From Erysipelotrichaceae bacterium (lineage in GTDB: Bacteria > Bacillota_I > Bacilli_A > Erysipelotrichales > Coprobacillaceae), in NCBI GenBank assembly GCA_028698185.1, contig JAQVDW010000018.1:4316-36315 (forward strand): DNA of 32,000 nucleotides. The letters run 5' to 3'. A program made the position numbers and the translations under genes. Numbering within the stretch: position 1 is the first letter of the stretch; every line of letters starts with the position of its first letter. Below, piece by piece: positions 1 to 22,882 of the stretch. Under the pieces are notes generated by a model that was not told the origin of the DNA, ran no database searches, and worked only from the letters and a program-made list of their open reading frames with translations.

Positions 1-264
1 TTGCATGATGGCCGAAGAGGCATAGCGGATATTGATTATGGCGTCCGCTCCAAGAGCCTCGGCCTCGTAGACCATCCGTTTGGTCGCCAGGGCCCTGGCA
101 TCATCCATCATTTTGGTGTAGGCGGTAAGTTCCCCGCCGACCAGGGTCTTTAATCCCTGGGCGATATCATGACCCACGTTGCGGGTCTGGATTGTACTTC
201 CTTTGACAATCGACAAAGTTTCCAGCTCTTTTCCGGAAATGTAATCAGTATTTACCAAGATCAT
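1..264 (-). CDS. YbjQ/UPF0145-family protein (putative heavy-metal-binding domain); the 3' end runs off the window edge
   Basis: Hand translation of the minus strand from ATG 264-262 gives MILVNTDYISGKELETLSIVKGSTIQTRNVGHDIAQGLKTLVGGELTAYTKMMDDARALATKRMVYEAEALGADAIINIRYASSAIMQ... It has the family-typical GGE..Y...R..A..RM..EA..LGADAI pattern. A GGGTG Shine-Dalgarno lies upstream. It overlaps the upstream ORF by 20 nt. Confidence 0.75.
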   Translation of the reverse strand, partial: MILVNTDYISGKELETLSIVKGSTIQTRNVGHDIAQGLKTLVGGELTAYTKMMDDARALATKRMVYEAEALGADAIINIRYASSAIMQ

Positions 265-466
265 CAGTTTCACCCTTTCTTATTTCCTTGATTCTTTCTA
301 CTAATACATGGATGGCCCCAAAGCAGATTCCCAAGGCGGCCATATCCAGGAATATCTTTGCGAAAATGGACTCATCCAGACTGAAGCTAAGATACAGCAA
401 AAAACCCCCATAAAGACATACAATCGCCGTGATCGCTATTGGCGCGATGGTTTTTTTGAGTTTCAA
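245..466 (-). CDS. Small membrane protein (73 aa, two hydrophobic helices)
   Basis: ORF track. TTG start at 466-464 with AAGGAGGG a few nt upstream. Hydrophobic segments IAPIAITAIVCLYGGFLLYL and MAALGICFGAIHVLV. Appears to be operonic with its neighbours. Confidence 0.5.
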   Translation of the reverse strand: MKLKKTIAPIAITAIVCLYGGFLLYLSFSLDESIFAKIFLDMAALGICFGAIHVLVERIKEIRKGETDDLGKY

Positions 467-497
467 TGATAGCCCTCCTTGATTTTTACTCTGTTGG

Positions 498-803
498 TCA
501 GCTGTTCCATAAGAATTTGAATATCAACAGCCAGATTAAAACCAGGCCAATGAAAGTAGCCAGGGTTATTGTCAGGGAACTTTGCCAACCCTTTTGCGAA
601 TAAGCCTTGGCGATCTTCAGACCGGCAGGAATCCAGACGATCAGGAATATGACCGCGAACAGGCCGATGGTGCCGATGTACTCCATGGCGGGATAACCGA
701 AAATCTTCCCACCGCTGGTCATCTCGGGCAAAAACGGAATCATGATTGAGCTGACAAGCCAACCGATTGCAGCGATGGCCCAGCCCGGGTTTGGTTTCTT
801 CAT
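498..803 (-). CDS. Small integral membrane protein (101 aa, about 3 TM)
   Basis: Internal ATG at 803-801 (MKKPNPGWAIAAIGWL...) is preceded by GAAGGAA. The longer tracked ORF start has no ribosome binding site. Three hydrophobic stretches. Confidence 0.5.
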   Translation of the reverse strand: MKKPNPGWAIAAIGWLVSSIMIPFLPEMTSGGKIFGYPAMEYIGTIGLFAVIFLIVWIPAGLKIAKAYSQKGWQSSLTITLATFIGLVLIWLLIFKFLWNS

Positions 804-858
804 AGTGTTTTCCTTCTCTTGCTTCACTCCATCAATAAATACAAGAATTCCTACCTTA

Positions 859-887
859 AATTTAATCCTTTTAAACGGCTTTGTCAA
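859..887 (-). promoter_or_regulatory. Candidate sigma-A promoter for the membrane-protein/ybjQ operon
   Basis: Minus strand reads TTGACA (887-882), 17 nt, TAAATT (864-859). Confidence 0.4.
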
Positions 888-1051
888 TCGGTTGAAGTGG
901 GGATTAAAAGTGGTCTAACAGTGGTTTCGCCATTAAACATACGTGAAATGGATTTTGGTCAATGTCATTGATTTTAAGCGCACAGGTTCATTTTCCGGGC
1001 AACAAAAGAAGGCAAAAGTGTAAAAATCATCGTTTCCTATGTGCGATTCAT

Positions 1052-1080
1052 TTGACATTGGCGGGACTTGCGGTTATAAT
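1052..1080 (+). promoter_or_regulatory. Consensus sigma-A promoter upstream of the carbonic anhydrase gene
   Basis: TTGACA (1052-1057), 17 nt, TATAAT (1075-1080). The start codon lies 47 nt downstream. Confidence 0.75.
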
Positions 1081-1126
1081 TCTTGAAGTTTATACGAAAA
1101 ATCTAATCAACTTAGGAAGAAATGTA

Positions 1127-1669
1127 ATGATCGAAGAAATTTTAAAATTCAATGAAGCATTTGTAGCCAAAGAAGAATATGTCAAGTATGCCACAAGCAA
1201 GTATCCAGACAAGAAAATTGCGATTGTCTCATGCATGGATGCCCGGCTTACTGAACTTTTGCCTGCGGCTCTTGGTCTTAAGAACGGTGATGCCAAGCTG
1301 ATCAAGAATGCCGGTGGGATCATCTCCCATCCATTTGGAAGTGCCATTCGCAGTTTGCTTATCGCCATCTACGAACTCGATGTTGAGGAGATCCTAGTCA
1401 TTGGCCACACCGACTGCGGCGCGCGCCATACCGACAGCAAAGTGATGATCGAAAAGATGAAGGAAAAGGGAATCAGTCAGAAAAACATCGACCTGGTGAA
1501 ATATTTCGGAGTCGATTTTGAAAAATGGTTAGGCGGCTTCAACGATGTCGATGCCACCGTTATCAACTCGGTCGAGACCATCCGCAACCATCCGCTGATC
1601 ACCAAGGACATCAAGGTATATGGGTTTGTCATCGATTCTTATACCGGAAAAATGACCAAAGTCATCTAA
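1127..1669 (+). CDS. Beta-class carbonic anhydrase
   Basis: MIEEILKFNEAFV... with the zinc-ligand motifs SCMDARL (C-x-D-x-R) and GHTDCG (H-x-x-C). ATG 1127 is preceded by AGGAAGA. The upstream part of the tracked ORF overlaps the promoter. Confidence 0.85.
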   Translation: MIEEILKFNEAFVAKEEYVKYATSKYPDKKIAIVSCMDARLTELLPAALGLKNGDAKLIKNAGGIISHPFGSAIRSLLIAIYELDVEEILVIGHTDCGARHTDSKVMIEKMKEKGISQKNIDLVKYFGVDFEKWLGGFNDVDATVINSVETIRNHPLITKDIKVYGFVIDSYTGKMTKVI

Positions 1670-1711
1670 TTGTTAACTGTAAAATATGACCAACCGATCG
1701 GTGGACTTGAA

Positions 1712-1755
1712 AAATCCGCAGGAAACCCATACCGAGTGTTCCTGCGGATTTTTTA
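1712..1755. terminator. Bidirectional Rho-independent terminator between convergent genes
   Basis: Stem ATCCGCAGGAA / TTCCTGCGGAT, flanked by an A-run and a T-run (aaaaATCCGCAGGAA...TTCCTGCGGATtttttt). Confidence 0.75.
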
Positions 1756-1789
1756 ATACAACTTATTCGCTTCTATGATGATGTTGGAG

Positions 1790-2614
1790 CTAACCTAGGG
1801 CCACATCCAAAACCATCATGACTGCAAAACCGACCAGGCAGCCAATGGTGGCGATATCGGTATTGGAACCACCCTTTTCCCGCTGTGCTTCGGGAATCAG
1901 TTCCTCGACGACCACATAGATCATCGCCCCGGCGGCAAAGGCCAAGGCATAAGGAAGCATCTGTTGCATCCTGACTACGGCGATGGCTCCGATGACCCCG
2001 GCAATGGGCTCGACAATTCCTGATGCCTGGCCATAGAGGAATGATTTGAAACGGCTGAAGCCTTCCCGGCGCAATGGGATGGATACTGCAGCCCCCTCGG
2101 GGAAGTTCTGCAGCCCGATTCCGATGGCCAATGCGACTGCTCCGGATATCGAAGCGGTAGTTCCGATGCCTGCCGCCACCGCGCCAAAAGCGACGCCAAC
2201 CGCCAACCCTTCTGGAATGTTGTGCAGGGTTATCGCCAGCACAAGCAGGACGCTTCGCTGCCAGTTTGTTTTGATCCCTTCGGCCTGGGAAGTGTTGAGG
2301 CCCATATGGAGATGGGGCAGCAGGTTGTCGATCACATACAGGAAAGCTCCTCCTAAAAGAAAACCGGTGGCTGCCGTGATATAGGCGACTTGTCCGAGTT
2401 CGGTGGCCATCTCGATGCTTGGGGCCAGAAGCGACCAGAAGCTCGCCGCGACCATTACCCCGGCGGCAAATCCCAACATGGCGTTGAGGACTGTTTTGTT
2501 GATGACTTTGAAAAAGAATACCATGGCGGCTCCCAGCGCGGTGACCCCCCAGGTGAAAAGTGTAGCGAACAGTGCCTGTTGAAACGGACTGAACTGGCTG
2601 ATCCATTGAATCAT
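1790..2614 (-). CDS. ZIP-family (GufA/ZupT-like) divalent metal transporter
   Basis: [34 protein letters not shown]..., polytopic, with the [10 protein letters not shown] and [13 protein letters not shown] signature helices. ATG 2614 is preceded by AAGGAGGGG. Confidence 0.85.
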
Positions 2615-2915
2615 ATATTTCCCCTCCTTGTATATGTGTCGAATATGATCGTTTTTTATCATTTTACCTTTTCGGGTTTGGGAATTCAAGAAATGTGCTA
2701 GTGAAATTACAGTTGCCAGCATCGGTGGCTTTATTTTATTGTTATCCGACGATTGTGGCAGCGATTATCAAGAACTTTCTGGAATATGACAACTTGAAAC
2801 AATCCGGGAAAAGTAAATGGTGCTTCCTGCAAACACAAAGAGACACCGAATTCCTAGGTTGGACATGCCTCCTTTTTGATGGTTCAATCCGCAACAGTTT
2901 GCCATGTTGCGCGTT

Positions 2916-4052
2916 TTACAGCCTGGTGACCATCCGGATCGCAAAGATAAGCCGGTTCATGGGGGATGGATTGATTACGATGGCTTTTTTCGGGCAGACC
3001 GACATGCAGTAGTAGCAGCTGATGCAGCGTTTTTGATCGATGGCTATCCTGCCATCCTTCAAAGTTATGGCGTTGACGGGGCAGGATGGAATGCACTCAA
3101 GGCACCCGTTGCACTTGCTTTGTCTTACCTTGAGGTTGACGAAAGTCTTGGTCACAAATATGCTGCTGTTGTTGTAGGGCAGGTCAAGCGGGGTCTTGAT
3201 CAGTTTGGCAAAAAGAAACTGCGGACATTGTCCGATGACCTGGATGTCATCTTCACTCTTGATCATGCCCCTTTTGATGGCCTGGATGAAAACGGGGATC
3301 TCATCCACATTGTAACCGATCATCTTGGCGGCGACGAAGTCGAGGGCGGCGGGATTTCTCGAGGCGAGGACGACTCCGGTAGCTACGGGTTTGCCCAGGG
3401 CGGTCGGTCCTCCGTCAAGGCTGAATATCGCGTCCATTACCGAAAGGGTCGGCTTGATGTTTTGGTGGATGTCGATGAAAACGTCCCCCAGCTCGAATTC
3501 GCTGTTTACCCACTGGTGGATTTTCTGCTTGTAGCCTCCGGGCAGACAGCCGAACATGTTCTTGATGGCTCCCGAAAACCGGGTGGCGCTGTGGGTCTTG
3601 AGCTTGCAGGCATCGATGATCAGATCGACTTCGCTTAAAATCGCGGGCATGTACAATTCCCGCAGTCCGTCCGGCCGGTCAGGACCTATGTCAATCTTCG
3701 CCAGCCGGCATTTTTCGAATTCGACCAGGCGGGCCTGATACTTTCTGGCGACTTTATCGATTTTCGAGGTCACGAATGCCTTTTTGGTCAGACCCCGCTG
3801 GAAAAAGGCAATAGATTCGCCGATATAGATCTCGTTGTTTCTTTCCTGGCAGAGCCGGCACAGGGCATCGATCAGGGCATAATGGGTGATCGTATGCTGG
3901 TTTGGGCTGTTCTGGGACACGAGATTGGGTTTTATCAGAATCTTCTTGTTTTCCGGCAGCTCGAAGCCGATATCTTCGATGGCCTTTTTGACGGCAAGGT
4001 AGACGGCTTCCAGTTCATAAGTGGGGCAACTGACAATTGATACTTGTTCCAT
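2916..4052 (-). CDS. DUF362-domain protein with a C-terminal 2x[4Fe-4S] ferredoxin domain
   Basis: N-terminal and central region typical of DUF362 (KILIKPNL..., KLKTHSATRFSGAIKNMFGC). Two CxxCxxCxxxCP motifs (CNGCLECIPSCP, CISCYYCMSVCP). GGAGGAAA ribosome binding site. Confidence 0.8.
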   Translation of the reverse strand: MEQVSIVSCPTYELEAVYLAVKKAIEDIGFELPENKKILIKPNLVSQNSPNQHTITHYALIDALCRLCQERNNEIYIGESIAFFQRGLTKKAFVTSKIDKVARKYQARLVEFEKCRLAKIDIGPDRPDGLRELYMPAILSEVDLIIDACKLKTHSATRFSGAIKNMFGCLPGGYKQKIHQWVNSEFELGDVFIDIHQNIKPTLSVMDAIFSLDGGPTALGKPVATGVVLASRNPAALDFVAAKMIGYNVDEIPVFIQAIKRGMIKSEDDIQVIGQCPQFLFAKLIKTPLDLPYNNSSIFVTKTFVNLKVRQSKCNGCLECIPSCPVNAITLKDGRIAIDQKRCISCYYCMSVCPKKAIVINPSPMNRLIFAIRMVTRL

Positions 4053-4090
4053 TGGATTTCCTCCATTCCCTTGATGGTTCCTCTACAATC

Positions 4091-4119
4091 AGTGTAGCAC
4101 TTCCAGCCTGTTTTCTCAA
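4091..4119 (-). promoter_or_regulatory. Candidate promoter of the DUF362 gene
   Basis: Minus strand reads TTGAGA (4119-4114), 17 nt, TGcTACACT extended -10 (hexamer 4096-4091). Confidence 0.5.
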
Positions 4120-4633
4120 TTTATTTGATGGCTCATATCGCCCGTCAATAACATGTAAAAAAGCCGGGAATAGTCAAAGGCTGGATGTGACAAGGTGTTC
4201 ACTGCTGCCGGTTTTTAAGCCGACAATTCGCTAGAAGAAGCGTTGGAAGAACTTTGCGATGATATTTCATGAATCGTAGATACAATCGCTCCAGAAAAGG
4301 TCCTGACCGCTGTCCATAAAGAGTATCGTGCAATTCGGGTAATGGAATAATATGTTGAAGGATTTGTAACTGTAATCAGTATCAAATCAATCTGTCAATG
4401 GGGTGAATTTTGGATTTGGAACGATGCGGCCACGCTGCGTCCTTTTTAATCGCTTTGATAAACGGCTTTATTTTCTGGAATTGAGGATAAAAAAACATCA
4501 AGAAACTTTAAGAAAGCCTTGGATAATATTGTTGGAATATCAATATTAGGCAGTATGGTAGTGGCTGGTATAATAATTGCTATCGTACTACCTGCTTATC
4601 ATGCATTTATAAAAAAATAGGTTTTGCTAGTAG

Positions 4634-4657
4634 AAGTCATGTAATTATGACTTTTTT
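4634..4657 (+). terminator. Rho-independent terminator-like hairpin at the left edge of the AT-rich islet
   Basis: AAGTCAT gtaatt ATGACTT followed by TTTTT. Confidence 0.5.
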
Positions 4658-4750
4658 AATTTTATGTCGGATTGAACCAAATTTTTCTAATTGTCGTCTA
4701 CTATATGTGCCTAATTCAAGCGTAAAAATGTAATATATTTAATTTATGTA

Positions 4751-4779
4751 TTGAAAAAATGTAACATTATATATAAAAT
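4751..4779 (+). promoter_or_regulatory. Candidate promoter of the retron ncRNA-RT transcript
   Basis: TTGAAA (4751-4756), 17 nt, TAAAAT (4774-4779). The predicted start is about 4786-4787, which coincides with the left inverted repeat. Confidence 0.55.
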
Positions 4780-4786
4780 AAATGTA

Positions 4787-4915
4787 GCGCATGGCCAGAT
4801 TTTTCGTTTGTGTTTCGCAAATGTTGAAAATAATGTTGGGCAGAATTGCTCCTTATATAACGCTTACGGTTATACTTGTATATACGTATCATTAGCATAT
4901 TGAGTGGCCATGCGC
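4787..4915 (+). ncRNA. Candidate retron msr-msd non-coding RNA bounded by a1/a2 inverted repeats
   Basis: GCGCATGGCCA (4787-4797) is the perfect reverse complement of TGGCCATGCGC (4905-4915). It sits directly between the promoter and the RT ribosome binding site. Internal short hairpins are present, and G4798 follows a1. Confidence 0.6.
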
Positions 4916-4932
4916 CTAATGGGTGGAAATTT

Positions 4933-6597
4933 ATGAACAAACTATATAAAGTAAAGACTAAAAGAGATTTGGCAGATGCTCTTGGGATCCCGTATAGAAA
5001 ACTAACGTATATGCTCTACATATATAAAATTGAAAACTTCTATGAATCGTTTGAAATTGATAAGAAATCTGGCGGAAAAAGAAGGATAAACGCCCCAAGA
5101 GGAGACTTGCTTGACTTACAAAGACAACTGGCAATGATGCTCGCCGATGTGTATGATAATATAAACGAAAACTGTCGAACTTTTTCGAACATTTCTCATG
5201 GATTTGAAAAAAGAAAAAGCATTATCACTAATGCAAAAATGCATAAAAACAAACGTTATGTTCTTAATTTGGATATAAGTGATTATTTTGATAGTTTCAG
5301 TTTTGCAAGGGTTATGGGGTTTTTTATAAAAAATTCCAATTTTGAAATGTCAATTGAAGCGGCAACAGTGCTTGCACAATTAACTTGTTATGAAGGTAAA
5401 TTACCCCAGGGAGCTCCAACCTCGCCCATTATTTCAAATATGATTTGTAGGATATTAGATTTGCGAATAGCAAAGATTTGTAAGAGAAATAAAGTTGTGT
5501 ATTCTAGGTATGCTGATGACTTAACTATCTCTACTAACAATAAATACTTCATTGAAAATTATGAAGATTTTGTATCTAAACTTAGAGATGAAATTGAGAG
5601 ATTTGGATTATCTATAAATGAAAAAAAGACTCGATTGTTAACTAACTACGCGAGGCAAGAAGTCACGGGTCTTGTTGTAAATAGAAAGATAAGCATAAAA
5701 AGAGAGTATTGTAAAGATACTAGAGCTATGCTTCATCAATTATTGAAAACTGGCGATTTTTTAATAGATAAACATCCAGGAACAATAAGGCAGTTAGAAG
5801 GCAGATTTGCGTTTATCAATCAGATTGATTGGTACAATAATAGTTTTGATGGCAATGATCATGGTTTATATAAACTTAATTCTAGAGAGCGTCAATACCA
5901 AAAATTCTTGTTCTATAAATATTTTTACGCTAATGATATGCCTTTAGTTGTTACTGAAGGGAAAACGGATATAATTTATCTTAAGGCGGCCTTGAGAAAA
6001 TACCACAAAAAGTACCCATCATTAATAGAAATGAATAACGGAACGTATAGATACAAGGTTTCTTTTTTGAAAAAGAGCAAACGAATTAGATATTTTTTAG
6101 GTTTTCAGCTTGACGGAGCAGACTCGATGATAAAGATATACAAATACTATACTAAAGGTGGGAATTGTCCGAATTATTTTGAAATTATTAGTAAATTGAG
6201 CAAAAATGGACCATCTAACCCAGTGATATTACTATTTGATAATGAGCCTCAAAAAAATAAGCCATACTGTAAATTTAGACAAGAGGCAAAATTAAAAAAC
6301 AGCCCTCCAGATAATACTAATTTGTCGGATAAACTAGAAGGTAATTTGTATCTTCTAACTGTCCCTATGATGCAAGGAAAATGCGAGAGTGAGATGGAAG
6401 ATTTATTTCATGATTCGGTTCTTGAGGTTAAGATTGGTAGTAAAGAATTTAGTCGAGATCCGCACGCTGATTCTAGTAAATATTTCGGTAAGACTAAATT
6501 CGCCGAATATGTTCATAAAAATTTCGAAAATATTGATTTCTCAAATTTTGTGCCACTACTTGATGAATTGAATGATATAGTTATGAAATTTGAATGA
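4933..6597 (+). CDS. Retron-type reverse transcriptase fused to a C-terminal Toprim-like domain (Ec67/Retron-Eco2-like)
   Basis: Motifs NAKMH (NAxxH), LPQGAPTSP, YSRYADDLTIS and RQEVTGLVVN (VTG). The C-terminal part has VVTEGKTDIIYLKAAL, VILLFDNE and SEMEDLF. ATG 4933 is preceded by GGGTGG. The tracked TTG start at 4876 would overlap the a2 repeat. Confidence 0.85.
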   Translation: MNKLYKVKTKRDLADALGIPYRKLTYMLYIYKIENFYESFEIDKKSGGKRRINAPRGDLLDLQRQLAMMLADVYDNINENCRTFSNISHGFEKRKSIITNAKMHKNKRYVLNLDISDYFDSFSFARVMGFFIKNSNFEMSIEAATVLAQLTCYEGKLPQGAPTSPIISNMICRILDLRIAKICKRNKVVYSRYADDLTISTNNKYFIENYEDFVSKLRDEIERFGLSINEKKTRLLTNYARQEVTGLVVNRKISIKREYCKDTRAMLHQLLKTGDFLIDKHPGTIRQLEGRFAFINQIDWYNNSFDGNDHGLYKLNSRERQYQKFLFYKYFYANDMPLVVTEGKTDIIYLKAALRKYHKKYPSLIEMNNGTYRYKVSFLKKSKRIRYFLGFQLDGADSMIKIYKYYTKGGNCPNYFEIISKLSKNGPSNPVILLFDNEPQKNKPYCKFRQEAKLKNSPPDNTNLSDKLEGNLYLLTVPMMQGKCESEMEDLFHDSVLEVKIGSKEFSRDPHADSSKYFGKTKFAEYVHKNFENIDFSNFVPLLDELNDIVMKFE

Positions 6598-6840
6598 CCG
6601 CATGCCTCAGGTTGAAAATTCCAGTAGTGATATATCGAGATTTGGTAGTTCAAAAATCCAACTAATTTCTACATTTCAGATCATATATCTTCTTTTCGCG
6701 AACCAAAAGTGATGCATACTGTGTTTTATGGGCATTTAAATTATGAAATGTGATTATTAAAATTTCAATACGAATTACTTTTCCAGAAGCAGCACTTAAT
6801 TACTTTTTAACTAGAATCGATTAGCAAGTAATGGGTGGTT

Positions 6841-7107
6841 ATAACAAGTAGACTTATATTGAATATGATAACTTTTGTTTTAGGTGCTAAGAAAGAAGAA
6901 ACTTATCAGGAAAAATGAATGTTAACCTATTTGTTTAGGAAGGACTTGTCCTTGGAAGAACAATGCACTAGACCTATGATTATGTTAAAAGGGGGAATGT
7001 CGATGATTATTAGAGGATTTATCACTGGTTTACAAAGAATTTGTTTTAATGGCATTTCAATTAATCTTGGCCCTATAGGATTTAATTTTGCTAGTAGTTC
7101 TTCCTAA
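6841..7107 (+). pseudogene. Possible fossil of a second retron RT N-terminus (one in-frame TGA, truncated)
   Basis: The frame from 6841 reads ...VLGAKKEETYQEK*MLTYLFRKDLSLEEQCTRPMIMLKGGMSMIIRGFITGLQRICF... It aligns by eye to the intact RT segment KLTYMLY...KKSGGKRRINAPRGDLLDLQRQL. It is preceded by TAATGGGTGG (6829-6838), identical to the intact RT's SD region (4917-4926). Confidence 0.4.
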
Positions 7108-7209
7108 ATGAATAATAATGTTTGTATCTAATTTTGCAATCTAAACATCTTTTCGATATTTTCGTCAGTCAACGTACTCTGTTACTATCAAAATCAATAT
7201 TTTATTAAC

Positions 7210-7364
7210 TTAATACATTCCTGAATCGCCCAGATCGGCAGTTCTATTATGCACTAAATAATCGCATACTGGATGATCACTTGCTGCATCGTTCTGGATC
7301 AGTGCCAGGATCTCCAACGCTGATTTCAACGAAGTCACAAAGAAATATTCATTTTTTTGTCCAT
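7210..7364 (-). pseudogene. Small ORF with a strong ribosome binding site, interrupted at an A7 homopolymer
   Basis: GGAGGTGATAGC-ATG (7364-7362) gives MDKKMNISL* in frame. After the A7 run (7358-7352) the -1 frame stays open to 7210 (..NEYFFVTSLKSALEILALIQNDAASDHPVCDYLVHNRTADLGDSGMY*). Confidence 0.3.
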
Positions 7365-7516
7365 GCTATCACCTCCATTCAAAAGTACATACTTAGTGGG
7401 AGGTGATTTTACTTTTAATTTTATAAATACAAGGTATAAGTAATAAGATATATCTATATACATATTGGTCTAATGTGGTTAAAATGGAGTTAGATGATTA
7501 AAGAAAGGGAATTTAC

Positions 7517-8125
7517 ATGAAAGACACAGATAAAGCGTATTTTGAAATAGTTGATTTTTTACAAAATGCAGATTCGAAGTCATTGCTCTTAAAAGGTATC
7601 TCAGATGACGCGAAAGTCCAGTTGATGCTAAAATCCTTGCACGATGAAAAGCTACTAAGGGGTAGCGTTTATCTTATGCACATGAAAAAAGATGGGATTG
7701 AAAAGTTCTTTAGACCATTTAATATTCCTGGAAGGAAAAAAATCGCCCAATCAAAAACGTACGGTGAAGAAATTAGATTTAGTGATATGCAACTAAGATT
7801 CTATAAGCTAAAATCATATACAGATTTTCTGATTAATGAAGGACAAATGGATTCTTTTTCGATAGTTTGGCCGATTCAAAGCGCAGTAGGGAATAGAGAA
7901 GATATTGCTAATCTAAAAAAATATATTGGCAGTGCTGATGTGAAGAAAATAATTCTAATCACTTACAATGTGGTACTTCAAGATACAGAGGAGATTGAAT
8001 CGATTGTTGATAAGGTTATAAAACTAGATAAGGAAAACGATGATCCAAAGGTATATAATAGAAGAATTGAAACCGCAAAATACAATGATATTCGAAAAAC
8101 TGCATTATCGGGCGAAAGATGGTGA
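7517..8125 (+). CDS. Hypothetical protein (202 aa), no family recognised
   Basis: ORF track. AAAGGGA ribosome binding site 7 nt upstream of ATG 7517. AT-rich codon usage like the retron RT. The stop codon lies at the junction with the IS21 fragment. Confidence 0.55.
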   Translation: MKDTDKAYFEIVDFLQNADSKSLLLKGISDDAKVQLMLKSLHDEKLLRGSVYLMHMKKDGIEKFFRPFNIPGRKKIAQSKTYGEEIRFSDMQLRFYKLKSYTDFLINEGQMDSFSIVWPIQSAVGNREDIANLKKYIGSADVKKIILITYNVVLQDTEEIESIVDKVIKLDKENDDPKVYNRRIETAKYNDIRKTALSGERW

Positions 8126-8756
8126 CATGTTTCCGCGTTTATACCACGCAAATGATCAAATACGCTCATAGTCACGCCGTCCCAATCAACCATGACTTTG
8201 TCGCCTGGTTTGTGATGAATGTGCATCGTCAAATTGTTTTTCTTTACATAATCCTGGTACAATTCAAAGTAACGGGTTTGATGATAGAAAGGCAAAGATG
8301 CAGCGCGACATTGTTCCACATACTCACGCCACAATCCCCTAATGTATATTCCTGGTTTGAGTAACTCTTTATGGATGTAATCACAATCAGGCAAAATTTG
8401 GACTGGTAGATACTTTTCATCTGGAAAAAGCAACGAATTAATCTCGACATCATTCATACTTTGAAACTGAACCCATGTCAATCCGGTATTATCAGCAGCC
8501 TTGAAAATCCTGCTGACTGTATTACGGGATAAATGAAGCGATAAAGCAATGGCTCGTTGGCTCTCACCATAAAAACGTTTCTCAAGAATTTTCTTGATTT
8601 CTTGCATGAAAAAACACCTCCTTAGTAGATGCAAGGTAGATTGTTATCTACACTTCAATTCTACTCCTAAAGAGGTGGCTCTGTGAGTGAACATTTTATA
8701 TTTACAAAGTTGCTCTGTATGGTGAACACGGTGGCTCTCAACTAGCGGAATACTCA
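8126..8756 (-). mobile_element. Truncated IS21-family insertion sequence (left end plus the 5' third of istA only)
   Basis: Terminal region with repeated motifs GGTGGCTCT (8674-8682, 8730-8738) and GTGAACA. On the minus strand the outer end begins TGAGTATTCC... (8756 downward). No istB and no second end in the window. Confidence 0.65.
8143..8607 (-). pseudogene. istA: IS21-family transposase IstA, N-terminal fragment (about 155 aa of an expected ~400-500)
   Basis: MQEIKKILEKRFYGESQRAIALSLHLSRNTVSRI (HTH) ... HHKPGDKVMVDWDGVTMSVFD, typical of IstA. Similarity is lost near 8125-8145. AGGAGGTG ribosome binding site. Confidence 0.7.
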
Positions 8757-8840
8757 ATTATAATGGGGGCCTAAATGGGGGCCTTGGAAAAACATATCTA
8801 TGGAATAGTTGCTAAATAGTTAAAATATTTGTAGATAAAA

Positions 8841-8884
8841 CAAAAAAAGGTATTAAACACCTACAAAATAGTTGTTTAATACCT
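8841..8884 (-). terminator. Rho-independent terminator of rpsD
   Basis: Perfect 12-bp inverted repeat AGGTATTAAACA (8848-8859) / TGTTTAATACCT (8873-8884), followed on the minus strand by a U-run (plus-strand A-run 8842-8848). Confidence 0.8.
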
Positions 8885-8899
8885 AAATTTTTATGAGGT

Positions 8900-9505
8900 C
8901 TATCCCATTCTGTTGTAGTACTCAACGATTAATGATTCATTGATTTCTTGATTCAATTCTGATCTTTCAGGCAATCTAGTCAATTTACCTGTCAACTTAG
9001 CTGCATCAACTTCAACGAAAGCTGGTACATGAGTACGTCCTTCGATTGCTGCTTTGATTACTGCCATGTTTAAAGATTTTTCTCTAACTGCGATCACGTC
9101 ACCAACGTTTACTTTCATTGATGGGATGTCAGCTTTGATTCCGTTTAATGTGAAGTGTCCGTGGTTTACTAATTGTCTAGCCGCTCTTCTTGTTGAAGCG
9201 AATCCTAAACGGTAAACTACGTTATCCAAACGGCTTTCTAATAGGCAGAAGAAGTTGTAACCTGTGATTCCGTCCATTTTAGATGCTCTTTTGAATGTGT
9301 TGTGGAATTGTTTTTCGTTAACTCCATACATATGTCTCACTTTTTGCTTTTCAGCTAATTGTGCCCCATATTCAGTTTGTTTTTTTCTTTTTTGTCCGTG
9401 TTGCCCAGGAGCGTAAGGACGTTTGTTTAGTTCTTTACCGTTTTCTAAGGTAGAGAAACCTAAACGACGTGATAATTTCCATTGTGGTCCAGTATAACGT
9501 GCCAT
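8900..9505 (-). CDS. rpsD: 30S ribosomal protein S4
   Basis: [18 protein letters not shown]...[26 protein letters not shown]...[22 protein letters not shown] is collinear with Bacillus S4. ATG 9505 is preceded by GGAGGAAAAA. Confidence 0.95.
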
Positions 9506-9822
9506 TAATATTTTTCCTCCGTATATTGTTTTAGCAAGTAAAACAATAACCCGCATAGATTATCCAGGTTGTGTCCATATTAAGTATTTCTCCTTGCAGC
9601 AAGATACTCTACAAACGTTGGTTATGAACGCAATTACTGAAACTCCATGTGCTGCTATCATTTATTGCTTTTCAAGCATAACCGAATTGCCGGCCAAAGT
9701 CAAGAGAAAAACGGCGGAAATATCCCGATATTTTTAATGTTTTCCCATATTTGTTTTGGATCTTGGATATAATCGCGGGAATTTGGGAAAATATCGAATT
9801 TTAGCACCGCCGGGTCTTTTTG

Positions 9823-9851
9823 TTTCAAACGGGAGGCTTCTATGCTATAAT
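9823..9851 (+). promoter_or_regulatory. Candidate promoter of the DUF3783-pyrF-pyrE transcription unit
   Basis: TTTCAA (9823-9828), 17 nt, TGcTATAAT (hexamer 9846-9851). Confidence 0.45.
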
Positions 9852-9902
9852 CATTGTAAATATCGTGCAATTATGATATTCTAACTAATCGAGGTGAAAA
9901 AC

Positions 9903-10292
9903 ATGAAAGAATTGATCTTATTGGTAAATTTGGAAGGTACCCAGGATGGTATCGCCATCGGTTCGATCGCCCGCAATCTCGGGGTCGAAGTGAAGCATTT
10001 GAACGACACTGATTTCAACCAGGAAGTGGGATATCTGATCGGTTTGGAATCATACGAATTCGATGATGAAGCGGACGTTTCATCGCTTGAAGACAAGATG
10101 ATGGTACTCCACAACTTCTCGGATGAACAGATCGAATTGTTCCTGGATGTCTGCCGCCAGGCGGAAGTGTCTTACATCCCTTTAAAAGCGGTAACGACGC
10201 CGACAAACGTCCAATGGCGCTTTGTCGAGCTTTATAAAAATGTAAAAGCCGAATTCGAAGAAATGAAGCGGCTGCATGCAGGTCAAAATTAG
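9903..10292 (+). CDS. Small acidic protein, DUF3783-like
   Basis: ATG 9903 lies 6 nt after GAGGTG. The C-terminal block FSDEQIELFLDVCRQAEVSYIPLKAVTTPTNVQWRFVELYKNV resembles the DUF3783 consensus as I recall it. Confidence 0.55.
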   Translation: MKELILLVNLEGTQDGIAIGSIARNLGVEVKHLNDTDFNQEVGYLIGLESYEFDDEADVSSLEDKMMVLHNFSDEQIELFLDVCRQAEVSYIPLKAVTTPTNVQWRFVELYKNVKAEFEEMKRLHAGQN

Positions 10293-10301
10293 GAGGGGCG
10301 C

Positions 10302-11012
10302 ATGAATTCTAAAGTATGTATCGCATTGGATTTTGATTCGACTGCCAAGGTAGTTGAATTTTTGGACTCGTTTCCTGGCGGTGAAAAACTGCTGGTTAAA
10401 ATCGGGATGGAAGTCTTCTATGGTCAGGGGCTGGAAATCATCAAGACGGTCAAAAGCTATGGCCATGATATCTTCCTTGATTTGAAACTCTATGACATTC
10501 CCAACACTGTCAAATCGGCGATGAGCCAGCTGGCCAAACTCGATGTGGATATCGTCAATGTCCATGCCAGTGGATCGATCGCAATGATGAAAGCGGCGAT
10601 TGAAGGGCTCGAAGAAGGTAAAATCAAGGACAAAAGACCGCTGTGCATCGCGGTCACCTGTCTTACTTCGCTCTCGCAGGAAGTGCTGAACAAGGAATTG
10701 CTTATCGACAGGACGATCGATGAAACGGTGCTTCAGTTTGCCAAAAACGCCAAAGAAGCGGGATTGGACGGAGTAGTGTGCTCGCCTTTGGAATCGAAAC
10801 TGATCCATGACAATTTGGGATTGGATTTCTTGACAGTGACGCCAGGAGTCCGTCTTAAAGACGATTCCATCGATGATCAACAGCGCGTGACCACACCAAG
10901 TGACGCCCGGGTGTTGACATCAAGCTACATCGTGGTGGGCCGGCCGATAACCCGTGCCAAGGACCCATATGCCACATATAAAAAAATCGTAAGAGAATTC
11001 GAAGGGGAATAA
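10302..11012 (+). CDS. pyrF: Orotidine 5'-phosphate decarboxylase
   Basis: IALDFDS..., [13 protein letters not shown] (catalytic DxKxxD) and [16 protein letters not shown] ribosome binding site. Confidence 0.93.
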
Positions 11013-11647
11013 TGATGGAAAAATTAATCGCAACACACTTATTGGATATTCAAGCAGTATTTTTAAAACCGAACGATCCGTTCACTTGGGCCAGCGGAAT
11101 CAAATCGCCGATCTACTGCGACAACCGGCTGACACTGTCGTTTCCGAAAGTCCGCAAGGATATCGAGGCCGGTCTTGCCAAACTGATCAAAGAAAACTAT
11201 CCTGAAGCCGAATGTCTGATGGGTACTGCCACTGCGGGAATTCCGCATGCGGCATTGGTTGCCGACATCCTTGATTTGCCAATGGGCTACGTTCGGGGCG
11301 GGGCAAAAAGCCATGGCCGCAACAACCGCATTGAGGGAGTGGTGAAACCAGGAATGAAAGTTGTCGTGGTTGAGGATTTGATCTCGACCGGGGGATCTTC
11401 ACTTGAATGTGTCGAAGCCCTGAAAGAAGCCGGATGCGAAGTGCTTGGCCTGGTTGCCATCTTCACTTACGGTCTAGCCAAAGCTGAGGCCAACTTTGCC
11501 GCGGCGGAATGCTCATACCATACGCTGACAAATTATGATGCTTTAGTTGAGGTAGCTGTGGCTAAAGATTATATCGCTGAATCCGACAAAGAAAAACTGT
11601 TTGCTTGGAAAAAAGATCCTAGCGACCAGTCATGGATGGACAAATAG
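11012..11647 (+). CDS. pyrE: Orotate phosphoribosyltransferase
   Basis: [16 protein letters not shown] and the PRPP-binding loop [14 protein letters not shown]. The start overlaps the pyrF stop (TAATG). Confidence 0.93.
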
Positions 11648-11654
11648 GCAGTTT

Positions 11655-12512
11655 ATGAACAACGCCAAAATCCGTTTTGACACAGCTACAGTTTTGAAAG
11701 AGGCTTTTCAACCTTTGTTTTTGACTTTTCTGTTCATCCTGCTTATCAATCAGGGAATCAGCACGTTCGCTTCGATGTTTGGTCAAACGCTATCGCAGAT
11801 TCTTACGCTTTTAGCCACTGTGGCGACCTTGCCTTTAGCCCAGGGCCAGGTAAAAGCGGCATTGAAGGCGGTCAACAACCAGATCGATGCCATCGATCCC
11901 AAAGACGATGGGCTGGCGGGATTTAGTCATTACCGCCGCTATTTCTCGACCTATTTTGTGGTCTTCATGATCACTTTGATGAGTGTTTTGATGATTGTCC
12001 TGGTGGGAGTCGTTCTGGTGCTTGCCACCCAGGGTGATGTGCTTTCGGGCCTGGGTGATTATTATCTGACATTCACCGATGTCAACGCCCTGGTTTTGGC
12101 GATGCAAAGTGATGCGGCACTGATGAGTGCGATCTACTCGACACTGGGAATCGTGCTGGCCATCCTTGGGGTCATCGGGCTTGTCTATCTGTTTATCTAC
12201 AGCCATATCGCACTGGCCCCCTTCATCCTTGAAAAGTATGACTATCGGGGACTTAAGGCGGTGACCACCAGCGCCAAATACATGAAGGGCAGGAAATGGG
12301 ACCTGGTCAAACTGATGGTTTCCTTTTTGCCCCATGCCTTGCTGGGGGTGGTGGCGATGAGTGTCATCGACAGCTTCGTTTCCAATATGGTTTTGGCCTC
12401 GCTTCTTTCGAGCATTGTCTTCATCGCTGTCTTGAATGTCCGTTTCAAGGTAGCCCTGGCTTACTTCTTCGAAGAAGCGGACATCGCCTACGAAGGACAG
12501 ACCCATGACTGA
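11655..12512 (+). CDS. Polytopic membrane protein, possibly DUF975-like
   Basis: ATG 11655 (MNNAKIRFDTATVLKEAF...). At least 5 hydrophobic helices. The KYMKGRKWDLVKLMVSFLPHALLGV block is reminiscent of DUF975. The family call is tentative. Confidence 0.55.
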   Translation: MNNAKIRFDTATVLKEAFQPLFLTFLFILLINQGISTFASMFGQTLSQILTLLATVATLPLAQGQVKAALKAVNNQIDAIDPKDDGLAGFSHYRRYFSTYFVVFMITLMSVLMIVLVGVVLVLATQGDVLSGLGDYYLTFTDVNALVLAMQSDAALMSAIYSTLGIVLAILGVIGLVYLFIYSHIALAPFILEKYDYRGLKAVTTSAKYMKGRKWDLVKLMVSFLPHALLGVVAMSVIDSFVSNMVLASLLSSIVFIAVLNVRFKVALAYFFEEADIAYEGQTHD

Positions 12513-13251
12513 CAGGCGGCTGCTTGATGATTCACTGCTAACTGGCAAGCTGACTTGGAATATGGTGGCCTATGGTTATCTTACCGGTGGGGCGATGTAT
12601 TTTTTCTCGGCTCCGCTGATCGGCCAGTATCTCGCGGTCTTGCTGGTGGGCCATTACGGCAGCTACAGTTTGCTTTTGGGCGTGTTGAACCTGCTGTTCC
12701 AGGCGATCATGCTTGTGACCATGGTTGCCATTTTGAAGGATTTCATCATCGAGAGTGTCCGCCACTTTTCAAAAGGGTGGAAAACCGAGCTGCTCTGGGG
12801 ATTTAGTGTCGGCTTTCCGATGATGTTTATCACCAACTCCTTGCTGGGTGGCCTGGTGACCCTGTTCATCTCGAACGAGAGTGCCAATGAGGCGGCGATA
12901 ACCCAGCAGGCCCAGAGCAATTTCGCCTTGATTGCGGTGACCACAATCATTCTGGCACCTGTGGTCGAGGAACTTTTCTTCCGGGGGATTATTTTCCGTT
13001 CTTTTTCGCGGTACAATGTCGTCCTGGGGATGGTTGTCTCGTCGCTGTTTTTTGGCTTCGTCCATATCTACCAGGCCTTGCTGGCGGGCGATGTCTCGCA
13101 GCTTTATTACCTGATCCAATATGGCGGGATGGGCCTGGTGCTTGCCTGGGTGTACGTCATCCGGCGCAATATTCTGAGTGCAATCTTCGTCCATCTGCTC
13201 AACAACGCCATCTCGATGGTCATATTGTGGATATCGTTTGGATTGTTGTGA
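12505..13251 (+). CDS. CPBP-family intramembrane glutamic endopeptidase (CAAX protease/Abi domain)
   Basis: Motifs APVVEELFFRG (EExxxR), FGFVHIY and FVHLLNNA. Overlaps the upstream gene by 8 nt. Confidence 0.85.
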   Translation: MTDRRLLDDSLLTGKLTWNMVAYGYLTGGAMYFFSAPLIGQYLAVLLVGHYGSYSLLLGVLNLLFQAIMLVTMVAILKDFIIESVRHFSKGWKTELLWGFSVGFPMMFITNSLLGGLVTLFISNESANEAAITQQAQSNFALIAVTTIILAPVVEELFFRGIIFRSFSRYNVVLGMVVSSLFFGFVHIYQALLAGDVSQLYYLIQYGGMGLVLAWVYVIRRNILSAIFVHLLNNAISMVILWISFGLL

Positions 13252-13262
13252 TAAATAAACTG

Positions 13263-13293
13263 GGAGTCTAATCCATTAGGCTTCCGTTTTTTT
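13263..13293 (+). terminator. Rho-independent terminator after the CPBP gene
   Basis: GGAGTCTAAT / ATTAGGCTTCC imperfect stem followed by GTTTTTTT. Confidence 0.6.
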
Positions 13294-13361
13294 GTTCTAT
13301 GACTGTAAATAGGTGAATAATTGTGATAGAATGAATGAAATATCGTGCCCGGGGGAATCGT

Positions 13362-14831: not shown

Positions 14832-14832
14832 G

Positions 14833-22687: not shown

Positions 22688-22764
22688 TGGCGGTCTGGAC
22701 GGGACTCGAACCCGCGACCTCCGCCGTGACAGGGCGGCATTCTAACCAACTGAACTACCAGACC
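22688..22764 (-). tRNA. tRNA-Asp (GUC)
   Basis: The reverse complement folds as a cloverleaf: GGTCTGG acceptor, anticodon loop CTGTCAC, T-loop TTCGAGT, encoded CCA. Near-identical to Bacillus tRNA-Asp. Confidence 0.95.
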
Positions 22765-22772
22765 GTAAAAAA

Positions 22773-22863
22773 TGGCGGAGACAGAGAGATTTGAACTCTC
22801 GCGCCAGTTACCCGACCTACGCCCTTAGCAGGGGCGCCTCTTCAGCCTCTTGAGTATGTCTCC
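22773..22863 (-). tRNA. tRNA-Ser (GCU)
   Basis: GGAGACA/TGTCTCC acceptor stem, anticodon loop CTGCTAA, long variable arm, T-loop TTCAAAT, encoded CCA. Confidence 0.93.
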
Positions 22864-22882
22864 AGGTTTTTACTGCTTTTAC

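What the first reader, a model, noticed from the sequence alone, without database searches (positions are those of the whole stretch)
4933..6597. Single-protein retron: RT fused to a Toprim-like nuclease domain (Ec67/Retron-Eco2-like) in a Gram-positive genome
The 554-aa ORF carries these retron-RT hallmarks:
- NAKMH (NAxxH, nt 5230-5244)
- LPQGAPTSP
- YADD (nt 5509-5520)
- RQEVTGLVVN (VTG)

It then continues for about 210 aa with three further blocks:
- VVTEGKTDIIYLKAAL (Toprim-type Glu codon at 5956-5958)
- VILLFDNE (acidic DxD-like cluster)
- SEMEDLF

From memory, the E. coli Ec67 RT has very similar TEGKTD.IYLKAAL and MEDLF blocks. That would make this an RT-plus-effector fusion with no separate effector gene. 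The family is described, but the characterised members I know are proteobacterial. This copy sits in an AT-rich islet of a roughly 50 % GC Firmicute-like chromosome.
Basis: partly seen in the sequence, partly recalled or inferred. Interest (0 to 1): 0.7.

Follow-up and report, generated by a model that had tools for sequence, protein, structure and literature searches.

The report
Ordinary type I-C2 retron (RT-Toprim)
This is a complete but ordinary single-gene retron anti-phage system (a reverse transcriptase fused to a Toprim RNase, plus its small template RNA) of subtype I-C2, which is already described, normally found in Gram-positive bacteria, and already correctly named in GenBank.

Summary
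A 554-aa ORF (4933-6597, +) carries every motif at the stated coordinates. It matches NCBIfam retron_Ec67_fus (624 bits, cutoff 450) and PADLOC RT-Toprim_I-C (759 bits). It aligns end to end with the solved Retron-Eco2 protein (E=1e-104; model TM 0.78).

Its 11-bp a1/a2 stem shows compensatory changes in 9 of 11 pairs. A covariance model built without the window hits only this site (E=3e-19) and also recovers the validated Eco2 ncRNA.

The "DxD-like" cluster is D-N-E, the published signature of subtype I-C2. Eco2 is I-C1. A 2026 survey reports I-C2 as 97% Bacillota, so a Gram-positive host is expected. The identical protein is in NCBI under the correct name.

The retron lies in a 4,380-bp low-GC islet (4517-8896) that is absent from sister strains.

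The likely mechanism, by homology to Eco2, is that msDNA cages the Toprim RNase, phage attack on the msDNA releases it, and tRNA/RNA cleavage stops translation. This is a new member of a known kind and of low interest.

The parts
4517..8896 (.). Strain-variable low-GC islet (4,380 bp) that carries the retron. It is inserted 3 nt downstream of the rpsD stop codon.
   Evidence: Empty-site contigs L087 and L094 encode the identical S4 protein. They align to window 1-4516 (98.0%) and 8897-16000 (99.2%), with only 26 nt in between. Islet GC is 0.327 against 0.477 in the flanks. No terminal direct or inverted repeats were found.
4751..4779 (+). Sigma-70-type promoter candidate for the ncRNA-RT transcript (TTGAAA, 17 nt, TAAAAT).
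   Evidence: It matches 10 of 12 consensus positions and ends 5 nt before the covariance-model hit. This is a consensus match only; function is inferred.
4784..4918 (+). Retron msr-msd non-coding RNA (type I-C family).
   Evidence: Covariance model R1 was built from 17 related loci without the window. It gives one hit in the 32 kb on either strand: 98 bits, E=3.4e-19, full length. The same model finds the validated Eco2 ncRNA in E. coli (53 bits, E=1e-9) and 30 of 51 further loci, always just upstream of the RT. The MFE is -42.1 kcal/mol, z=-3.0.
4787..4797 (+). Inverted repeat a1 (GCGCATGGCCA).
   Evidence: It is perfectly complementary over 11 nt to 4905-4915. Nine of the 11 pairs show changes on both sides across 18 loci; 0 of 500 shuffles reach the observed score; 95.5% of cells are paired against at most 54% when the partner is slid.
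4798..4798 (+). Predicted branching guanosine, whose 2'-OH primes msDNA synthesis.
   Evidence: It is the invariant G of the AGATT motif directly after a1 in all 18 loci. It aligns with Eco2 rG15 in the covariance-model alignment. rG15 is the branch seen by cryo-EM (PMC12405507). The assignment is inferred by homology.
4806..4822 (+). msr stem-loop (7 bp), equivalent to the Eco2 RSL.
   Evidence: It is conserved in the alignment, with compensatory changes in 3 of 7 pairs and 96.8% of cells paired.
4835..4903 (+). Predicted msd template. The msDNA would be its reverse complement, about 69 nt, 5'-TCAATATGC...CCCAAC-3'.
   Evidence: The limits were transferred from Eco2 through the covariance-model alignment: termination at G52 and dT1 templated by the A of GGAGT. 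The central part is hypervariable between loci, as expected for msd. This is inferred and has not been measured.
4905..4915 (+). Inverted repeat a2 (TGGCCATGCGC).
   Evidence: It is the partner of a1 and is preceded by the conserved junction GCATAATGAGT (the window reads GCATATTGAGT).
4921..4927 (+). Shine-Dalgarno-like GGGTGGA, 5 nt before the ATG.
   Evidence: Read directly from the sequence.
4933..6597 (+). RT-Toprim fusion gene (554 aa plus stop), retron type I-C2.
   Evidence: NF038237 scores 624 bits against a 450 cutoff. PADLOC RT-Toprim_I-C PDLC02964 scores 759 bits. Eco2 in the PDB matches at E=1.3e-104. The AF2 model has pLDDT 87 and gives TM 0.78 to 9lm3_A.
5056..5670 (+). RT core (Pfam RVT_1, aa 42-246). 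It includes NAKMH (5230-5244), the catalytic YADD (5509-5520) and VTG (5662-5670).
   Evidence: RVT_1 E=5e-23. N100, H104, Y193, A194, D196, V244, T245 and G246 are invariant in 27 homologues. YADD is kept in 119 of 120 homologues.
5932..6594 (+). C-terminal Toprim-like nuclease domain (aa 334-554). Catalytic codons: E342 (5956-5958), D346 (5968-5970), D436 (6238-6240), E438 (6244-6246), E487 (6391-6393), E489 (6397-6399), K520 (6490-6492).
   Evidence: These residues align with Eco2 E374, D378, D460, D462, S513, E515 and K546. All are invariant in 120 homologues except E487, which is E in 98 and D in 21. The domain-only model (pLDDT 88) matches the Eco2 Toprim domain with TM 0.78, E=1.4e-14.

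Best explanation
The locus is an intact type I-C2 retron. It is a one-gene anti-phage system made of a promoter, an msr-msd ncRNA (4784-4918) and an RT-Toprim fusion protein (4933-6597).

Shown here:
- The protein is a full-length homologue of Retron-Eco2, with all RT and Toprim catalytic positions occupied.
- The ncRNA belongs to the same RNA family as the Eco2 msr-msd.
- The element sits in a horizontally acquired islet that is present or absent between strains.

Inferred by homology to Eco2 (PMC12405507, PMC12916289):
- The RT binds the a1/a2-closed ncRNA and primes on the 2'-OH of G4798.
- It copies about 69 nt of msd (4903 back to about 4835) into a branched msDNA.
- The msDNA holds the RT-Toprim in an inactive nucleoprotein oligomer, which is a trimer in Eco2.
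- A phage nuclease or another DNA-targeting phage factor degrades the msDNA.
- The released Toprim domain, a two-metal nuclease (E342/D436/E438 and D346/E487/E489, plus K520), cuts tRNAs and other RNAs. Translation stops and phage propagation is blocked.
For: Family membership:
- NCBIfam retron_Ec67_fus scores 624 bits, above its 450 cutoff.
- PADLOC RT-Toprim_I-C scores 759 bits over the full length.
- Eco2 in the PDB matches at E=1.3e-104 across residues 7-550.
- The Foldseek top hits are the Eco2 cryo-EM chains (E=1.6e-50, TM 0.78/0.75). Other retron RTs cover only the RT half.

Catalytic residues are conserved in 120 homologues and 27 homologues.

ncRNA:
- A perfect 11-nt a1/a2 repeat.
- The same architecture at the same distance from the RT in 33 of 37 related loci.
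- 13 of 21 pairs with compensatory changes; 0 of 500 shuffles as good; slid controls at most 54% paired against 95.5%.
- A covariance model built without the window gives one hit at 98 bits and recovers the validated Eco2 ncRNA.

Subtype:
- DxE is the I-C2 signature.
- PADLOC best models are reciprocal between the window protein and Eco2.
- All 18 DxE loci come from Bacillota-type genomes, apart from one Gordonibacter MAG and one unclassified MAG.

Mobility: empty-site alleles exist.

Mechanism in Eco2: msDNA-caged trimer, the DenB trigger, and Toprim RNase/tRNA nicking.
Against: - Nothing about this locus has been measured. msDNA synthesis, defence and RNA cleavage are all transferred from one proteobacterial relative with 36% identity.
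- The Toprim site differs from Eco2 at two metal-ligand positions: D462 is replaced by E438, and S513 by E487.
- The loop that forms the only protein-protein trimer contact in Eco2 (residues 325-347, 23 aa) is 9 aa long here, and ranges from 4 to 75 aa across the family. The oligomeric state may therefore differ.
- The Eco2 trigger DenB is a T-even phage enzyme, and the trigger in Erysipelotrichaceae is unknown.
- Pfam Toprim models do not hit. Direct fold matches to other Toprim nucleases are weak: AriB E=0.1 and BpOLD E=0.8.
- The promoter is only a consensus match.
Confidence: 0.85

Rival explanations
1. It is a genuine I-C2 retron but does not work like Eco2 in its details. The DxE plus extra-carboxylate active site and the short contact loop could give a different substrate (DNA, or other RNAs), a different metal dependence, a different oligomer, or a different trigger.
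For: E438 replaces Eco2 D462 in all 120 closest homologues. The Eco2 S513 position is acidic in 119 of 120 homologues and in 19 of 19 DxE proteins, but variable in DxD proteins. The trimer-contact loop is 9 aa against 23 aa. In the searched library, no paper reports defence or mechanism experiments on an I-C2 member. The census only cloned some for RT-DNA production and editing.
Against: D to E is a conservative change that keeps a carboxylate. The domain fold superimposes on Eco2 (TM 0.78). The ncRNA landmarks (branch G, msr hairpin, termination and start motifs) are all conserved with Eco2. The predicted msDNAs of both groups are equally unstructured as monomers.
Confidence: 0.2
2. It is a decaying or silent remnant. 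The islet is a dead piece of mobile DNA and the retron no longer functions.
For: The islet carries a truncated IS21-like transposase (only the first ~160 of ~420 aa) and about 900 nt without a sizeable ORF. No integrase or terminal repeats are present.
Against: The ORF is uninterrupted and every catalytic residue is intact. The ncRNA scores 98 bits, higher than any of the further related loci searched with the same model. A promoter and an RBS are in place. The identical protein is found in 5 contigs from independent metagenomic samples.
Confidence: 0.05
3. It is not a retron but another reverse-transcriptase class (group II intron maturase, DRT/UG, Abi) or a type XI/XII RT fusion.
For: The RT half also scores on RT-TIR_XII (322 bits) and RT-Protease_XI (306 bits) models, because these share RT clade 8.
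Against: Those matches stop within residues ~274-361, whereas the I-C models cover residues 3-552. Group II intron, Drt2 and Drt4 models fall far below their cutoffs. A retron ncRNA with a1/a2 covariation lies directly upstream. The C-terminus is the Eco2 Toprim domain.
Confidence: 0.01

Closest known systems
Retron-Eco2 (Ec67), type I-C1, E. coli (PDB 9LM3, 9I2F, 9I2G, 9S1F)
   Same: - One-gene RT-Toprim fusion preceded by msr-msd.
- Collinear over the full length (36% identity, TM 0.78).
- The motifs YADD, NAxxH, VTG, TEGKTD and MEDLF, and the invariant GK lysine, are shared.
- The ncRNA belongs to the same family: a1/a2, AGATT branch motif, msr hairpin, GAGT start motif.
- Predicted msDNA is about 69 nt against 67 nt.
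- Both lie in mobile or variable DNA; Eco2 sits between P2-like prophage genes.
   Different: - Motif V is DxE, not DxD.
- An acidic residue (E487) replaces S513.
- The trimer-contact loop is 14 aa shorter.
- The best PADLOC sub-models differ (02964/02967 against 02966/02963).
- The host is a Bacillota member (Erysipelotrichaceae), not Enterobacteriaceae.
- The islet is not a recognisable prophage.
- The trigger is unknown.
Type I-C2 retrons (Mestre et al. 2020), e.g. Mestre-1054 Bacillus stratosphericus, Mestre-1079 Streptococcus agalactiae and Mestre-1100 Clostridium sp., as used in the retron census
   Same: It shares the DxE signature, the EGxxD motif IV, the RT-Toprim fusion, the Firmicute host and the 'IC' ncRNA family. 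The window protein is 49-55% identical to many such proteins.
   Different: This is only a new sequence: the nearest relative other than itself is 55% identical. I did not compare it directly with the census constructs.
Type XI (RT-protease) and XII (RT-TIR) retrons
   Same: They share RT clade 8. The RT half scores 306-322 bits on their models. They are also single-protein RT-effector fusions.
   Different: The effector domain is Toprim, not a protease or TIR domain.
OLD-family, Gabija GajA and PARIS AriB Toprim nucleases
   Different: There is no ATPase partner or domain. Sequence profiles do not connect them, and the Foldseek matches are not significant (E=0.1-0.8). Mestre et al. place I-C Toprim domains in a separate lineage.

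Membership tests
Retron (general) | RT of the retron clade with NAxxH and VTG motifs and a catalytic YxDD | tested here: met
   NAKMH, VTG and YADD are present and conserved. The best HMM and structure hits are retron RTs.
Retron (general) | Adjacent ncRNA closed by a1/a2 inverted repeats, with a conserved branching G after a1 | tested here: met
   The ncRNA lies at 4784-4918. The 11-bp a1/a2 stem has compensatory changes in 9 of 11 pairs. The G of AGATT is invariant. The covariance model gives E=3.4e-19.
Retron (general) | Production of branched multicopy single-stranded DNA (2'-5' linkage) | not testable with these tools
   This needs expression and msDNA analysis. Only the template limits could be predicted (4835-4903).
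Retron type I-C (RT-Toprim fusion; NF038237 / PADLOC RT-Toprim_I-C) | Full-length match above the curated cutoff | tested here: met
   624 bits against a 450 cutoff, covering 1-552 of 554 aa. PADLOC gives 759 bits over residues 3-552.
Retron type I-C (RT-Toprim fusion; NF038237 / PADLOC RT-Toprim_I-C) | Single protein-coding gene, with no separate conserved effector | tested here: met
   The only other intact islet ORF (7517-8125) is absent from all 80 related loci and occurs only in copies of the same islet.
Retron type I-C (RT-Toprim fusion; NF038237 / PADLOC RT-Toprim_I-C) | Toprim motif IV EGxxD | tested here: met
   E342-G-K-T-D346 is invariant in 120 homologues.
Subtype I-C1 (Eco2 proper) | Toprim motif V DxD | tested here: not met
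   The window has D436-N-E438. Eco2 scores best on different PADLOC sub-models.
Subtype I-C2 | Toprim motif V DxE (Mestre et al. 2020) | tested here: met
   DNE is found in the window and in all 120 closest homologues. The definition is given.
Subtype I-C2 | Bacillota host range (97% in the SPIRE survey) | tested here: met
   NCBI assigns the identical protein to an Erysipelotrichaceae MAG. Named homologues are Bacillus, Enterococcus, Lachnospiraceae and similar.
Toprim superfamily | Toprim fold with a conserved Glu and an acidic dyad | tested here: met
   The domain model superimposes on the experimentally solved Eco2 Toprim domain (TM 0.78, E=1.4e-14). Acidic residues are invariant.
Toprim superfamily | Recognised by generic Toprim sequence models or by direct fold match to OLD/AriB/GajA | tested here: inconclusive
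Group II intron RT / DRT / Abi | Score above the family cutoff | tested here: not met
   TIGR04416 scores 72 against 300, Drt2 43 against 390, and Drt4 31 against 450.

The most novel reading that the evidence does not exclude
I-C2 retrons may be a mechanistically distinct branch of the RT-Toprim retrons. The DxE dyad is strictly coupled to an extra carboxylate at the Eco2-S513 position, and the inter-subunit contact loop is short and hypervariable. Together these could give a different metal geometry, cleavage specificity or assembly state from Eco2, and a trigger specific to Gram-positive phages. No I-C2 member has a published defence mechanism in the library I searched.
Probability: 0.2. 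Interest if true: 0.4.

Novelty: new member of a known kind. Interest (0 to 1): 0.2.

Why it matters
It matters little beyond good annotation. It adds one complete, well-delimited I-C2 retron: promoter, ncRNA with predicted branch G and msd limits, RT-Toprim gene, exact islet borders and a matching empty site.

Two points have modest practical value. The type I-C ncRNA has no Rfam model, and the covariance model built here finds it across phyla. The DxE plus acidic-residue coupling is a cheap, testable hypothesis about the Toprim metal site for anyone extending the Eco2 mechanism to Gram-positive retrons.

Tried and rejected
- **Rfam:** neither the gathering threshold nor a permissive E-value gave a match to the ncRNA. 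Only the three tRNAs and chance hits appeared.
- **Pfam Toprim models:** no hit.
- **Profile of 30 C-terminal domains against PDB sequences:** only Eco2 was found.
- **Structure prediction with locus-derived rows:** I redid it with substrings of returned proteins.
- **msDNA folding:** the predicted msDNA gives no significant monomer hairpin (z=-0.7). I first read this as a possible problem. The same holds for 17 relatives and for Eco2 itself, and it agrees with the inter-strand three-way junction seen by cryo-EM.
- **Empty-site search through the DUF362 neighbour:** my first look-up had wrong coordinates and the second returned only the same contig. The S4 protein succeeded.
- **Flanking repeats or att sites:** none found.
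- **ORF202 as a possible accessory effector:** rejected, because it does not co-occur with other I-C retrons and has no PADLOC, Pfam or NCBIfam hit.
- **'K562' quoted for Eco2:** there is no lysine at 562 in the deposited sequence. The invariant lysine is Eco2 K546, equivalent to window K520. I suspect 562 is OLD-protein numbering.
Full report
**1. The observation**

The window holds an uninterrupted ORF at 4933-6597 (+), 554 aa from the ATG. The ORF lies in a stretch of about 0.31 GC within a sequence of about 0.50 GC.

**2. The protein**

- Pfam sees only RVT_1 (aa 42-246, E=5e-23) and no Toprim model.
- NCBIfam NF038237 'retron Ec67 family RNA-directed DNA polymerase/endonuclease' matches residues 1-552 with 624 bits, against a curated cutoff of 450. 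Group II intron, Drt2 and Drt4 models fall far below their cutoffs.
- PADLOC gives RT-Toprim_I-C at 759 bits over the whole protein. RT-TIR (XII) and RT-protease (XI) models match only the RT half.
- Against PDB sequences the best hit is the Retron Ec67/Eco2 protein (9LM3, 9I2F/G, 9S1F), collinear over residues 7-550 against 13-577, E=1.3e-104.
- An AlphaFold2 model (pLDDT 87, pTM 0.76) superimposes on the Eco2 cryo-EM chains over the full length (TM 0.78/0.75, E=1.6e-50). The next hits are retron RTs that cover only the RT half.
- A model of the C-terminal 222 residues alone (pLDDT 88) matches the Eco2 Toprim domain (TM 0.78, E=1.4e-14). The next hits are the Toprim nuclease AriB of PARIS (E=0.1) and, further down, the Burkholderia OLD C-terminal region (E=0.8). 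Both are weak.

**3. Subtype**

The published Eco2 catalytic residues are YADD 199-202 and Toprim E374/D460/D462 and D378/S513/E515. In an alignment with 120 homologues, these map to window Y193-D196, E342, D436, E438, D346, E487 and E489. All are invariant, and an invariant Lys (K520, equivalent to Eco2 K546) is also present.

Two positions differ systematically from Eco2. D462 is Glu in all 120 homologues. S513 is acidic in 119 of 120.

Mestre et al. (PMC7736814) define I-C1 (Eco2) by EGxxD plus DxD, and I-C2 by EGxxD plus DxE, so this protein is I-C2. Three further results agree:
- Eco2 scores best on PADLOC models PDLC02966/02963, whereas the window protein scores best on PDLC02964/02967.
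- Among 80 related loci from GTDB species genomes, every full-length DxE protein (18, plus the window) comes from a Bacillota-type genome, except one Gordonibacter MAG and one unclassified MAG. All of them have an acidic residue at the S513 position.
- In the same set, the 21 DxD proteins come from Proteobacteria, Acidobacteriota, Cyanobacteria, Bacteroidota and similar phyla, and are variable at that position.

**4.

- Immediately upstream of the ORF lies a perfect 11-nt inverted repeat: GCGCATGGCCA (4787-4797) and TGGCCATGCGC (4905-4915).
- It is preceded by a TTGAAA-17-TAAAAT promoter candidate at 4751-4779.
- The 137-nt stretch folds at -42.1 kcal/mol, z=-3.0.
- In 33 of 37 related loci the longest inverted repeat in the 330 nt upstream of the RT lies at the same place. 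a1 starts about 140-225 nt before the RT start and a2 ends about 13-48 nt before it. The arm sequences differ between loci.
- An alignment of 18 such regions shows a conserved 5' half (AGATT, a CTTGTGTTTCGCAAG hairpin, GTTGAC..AAAATGG), a hypervariable centre, and a conserved 3' junction GCATAATGAGT followed by a2. This is the classic retron pattern.
- RNAalifold recovers the a1/a2 stem with changes on both sides in 9 of 11 pairs, and the msr hairpin with 3 of 7.
- In the control count, 95.5% of cells are paired, against at most 54% for slid partners. None of 500 shuffles reaches the observed covariation score or the observed number of compensated pairs.
- I built a covariance model from the 17 other loci only. 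It gives a single hit in the whole 32-kb window on either strand: 4784-4918 (+), 98 bits, E=3.4e-19, full length.
- The same model finds the Eco2 msr-msd in E. coli at 53 bits, E=1e-9. I first verified my recalled Eco2 ncRNA sequence by a 100% match next to the Ec67-family gene in 14 E. coli genomes.
- It also hits 30 of 51 further loci, always just upstream of the RT.
- Rfam 15 has no model that matches.

**5. Transfer of Eco2 landmarks**

In Eco2 the branch is rG15 (the G of CAGAUU), the msr stem-loop is 20-42, reverse transcription ends opposite G52, and dT1 is templated by the A of GGAGU just before a2. Through the covariance-model alignment, these correspond to window G4798, hairpin 4806-4822, G4835 and A4903.

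The predicted msDNA is therefore the reverse complement of 4835-4903: 69 nt, 5'-TCAATATGC...CCCAAC-3'. This is inference.

It folds only weakly on its own (-5 kcal/mol, z=-0.7). The same is true for the predicted msDNAs of 17 relatives and for the real Eco2 msDNA. That agrees with the cryo-EM finding that Eco2 msDNA forms an inter-subunit three-way junction and not a hairpin.

**6. Genomic context**

- The identical protein occurs on 5 metagenomic contigs. The four shown carry the same neighbours.
- Looking up the window's ribosomal protein S4 returned contigs L087 and L094, in which rpsD lies about 490 nt from the DUF362/ferredoxin gene.
- These empty-site contigs align to window 1-4516 (98.0%) and 8897-16000 (99.2%), with 26 nt in place of window 4517-8896.
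- The retron therefore sits in a 4,380-bp, 32.7% GC islet inserted 3 nt after the rpsD stop. It has no terminal repeats or target duplication.
- Besides the retron, the islet holds about 900 nt without a sizeable ORF, an orphan-like 202-aa ORF (7517-8125) and an N-terminal fragment of an IS21-like transposase (7978-8634, -).
- The 202-aa ORF does not accompany other I-C retrons. It belongs to a rare, unannotated family with 29 representatives among 1.84 billion proteins.
- A complete type II Wadjet operon lies 4.4 kb away in normal-GC DNA and is also present in the empty-site strains.

**7. Mechanism**

Shown here: an intact RT-Toprim homologue of Eco2 with all catalytic residues, a cognate ncRNA of the Eco2 family, and a horizontally acquired, strain-variable location.

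Inferred from Eco2 (PMC12405507; PMC12916289):
- The RT makes a branched msDNA.
- RT-Toprim and msDNA form an auto-inhibited nucleoprotein oligomer in which the msDNA cages the Toprim site.
- A phage nuclease (DenB for T-even phages) degrades the msDNA.
- The released Toprim nicks tRNA acceptor stems and cuts other RNAs, which shuts down translation.

Open points specific to I-C2 are the DxE/E487 active site, a contact loop of 9 aa against 23 aa in Eco2 (range 4-75 aa across the family), and the unknown trigger.

**8. Novelty**

- The exact protein is already in NCBI as 'MAG: retron Ec67 family RNA-directed DNA polymerase/endonuclease [Erysipelotrichaceae bacterium]'. Dozens of Bacillota homologues carry the same name.
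- Subtype I-C2 and its DxE signature were published in 2020.
- A 2026 survey reports I-C2 as 97% Bacillota.
- Firmicute I-C2 retrons (Bacillus stratosphericus, Streptococcus agalactiae, a Clostridium) were cloned in the retron census for RT-DNA production and editing.
- Only three papers in the library mention I-C2 together with retrons, and none reports a defence mechanism for one. The Eco2 authors state that no RT-effector fusion other than Eco2 has a documented mechanism.

The locus is a well-preserved new member of a known kind. The Gram-positive host is the rule for its subtype, not an exception.

Noticed in passing
window 13335-21230 (+): A complete type II Wadjet operon: JetA2 13335-14831, JetB2 14758-15942, JetC2 15943-19953 and JetD2 19923-21230 (PADLOC 435, 346, 1159 and 407 bits). 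GC is normal. JetA, JetB and JetC homologues (DUF2397, DUF2398, SbcC-like) are also called in the strains that lack the retron islet, so the operon is probably core to the species.
   Followed up: partly
window 7517-8125 (+): A 202-aa ORF in the same islet has no Pfam, NCBIfam or PADLOC hit and only a weak match to PHROG 36795 (unknown function). The word-index search found only the protein itself. Exhaustive HMMER found a rare family of about 190-aa proteins (29 representatives in 1.84 billion; best 38% identity). It is not linked to other I-C retrons.
   Followed up: partly
window 7978-8634 (-): An N-terminal fragment (HTH plus about 160 aa) of an IS21-like transposase (phrog_1157, E=2e-10). 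It overlaps the 3' end of the 202-aa ORF and is a sign of past IS activity in the islet.
   Followed up: partly
window 4465-4516 and 8848-8896; L087 8607-8690: In the empty-site allele, rpsD is followed by a 9-bp hairpin (CATCAAGAA...TTCTTGATG) and a T7 run. I saw this by eye; the scan tool did not call it because the loop exceeds 8 nt. The islet replaces the 26 nt that hold the 5' arm, so the rpsD terminator seems to be split. The islet brings its own 16-nt inverted repeat (8848-8863 and 8869-8884) next to the rpsD stop.
   Followed up: partly
window 6598-7516: About 920 nt of AT-rich sequence downstream of the retron contains only small ORFs (62 aa at 6919-7107 on +, 42 aa at 7210-7338 on -). 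The minus-strand ORF has a good RBS and ATG just upstream but in another frame, after an A-run, so a frameshifted small gene is possible.
   Followed up: no
L085 3490-5430 (E. coli NZ_CP027440.1): In RefSeq the E. coli Ec67-family CDS is annotated 60 codons too long (646 aa against the 586-aa Eco2 protein). It therefore runs across the whole msr-msd gene (3501-3632). The ncRNA itself is not annotated.
   Followed up: partly
related loci L017, L019, L026, L030, L032, L038 (Streptococcus): Streptococcal I-C2 proteins carry an insertion of about 74 aa exactly at the position of the Eco2 trimer-contact loop (residues 325-347). The same loop is 4-23 aa in most other members. Their ncRNAs are also longer (about 190 nt).
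   Followed up: no
related loci L008, L016, L033, L052, L055, L057, L058: Several RT-Toprim genes in the GTDB representative genomes stop early when translated in a single frame from the match start. They may be frameshifted pseudogenes, or this may be an artefact of my start assignment.
   Followed up: no
window 22691-23034 (-): A cluster of three tRNA genes (Rfam 52-70 bits).
   Followed up: no
PMC12405507, Toprim section: The paper names 'K562' as the catalytic lysine of Eco2, but the deposited Eco2 sequence has no Lys at 562. The lysine that is invariant across the family is K546 (window K520). I suspect 562 is the numbering of the Burkholderia OLD protein used for comparison.
   Followed up: partly
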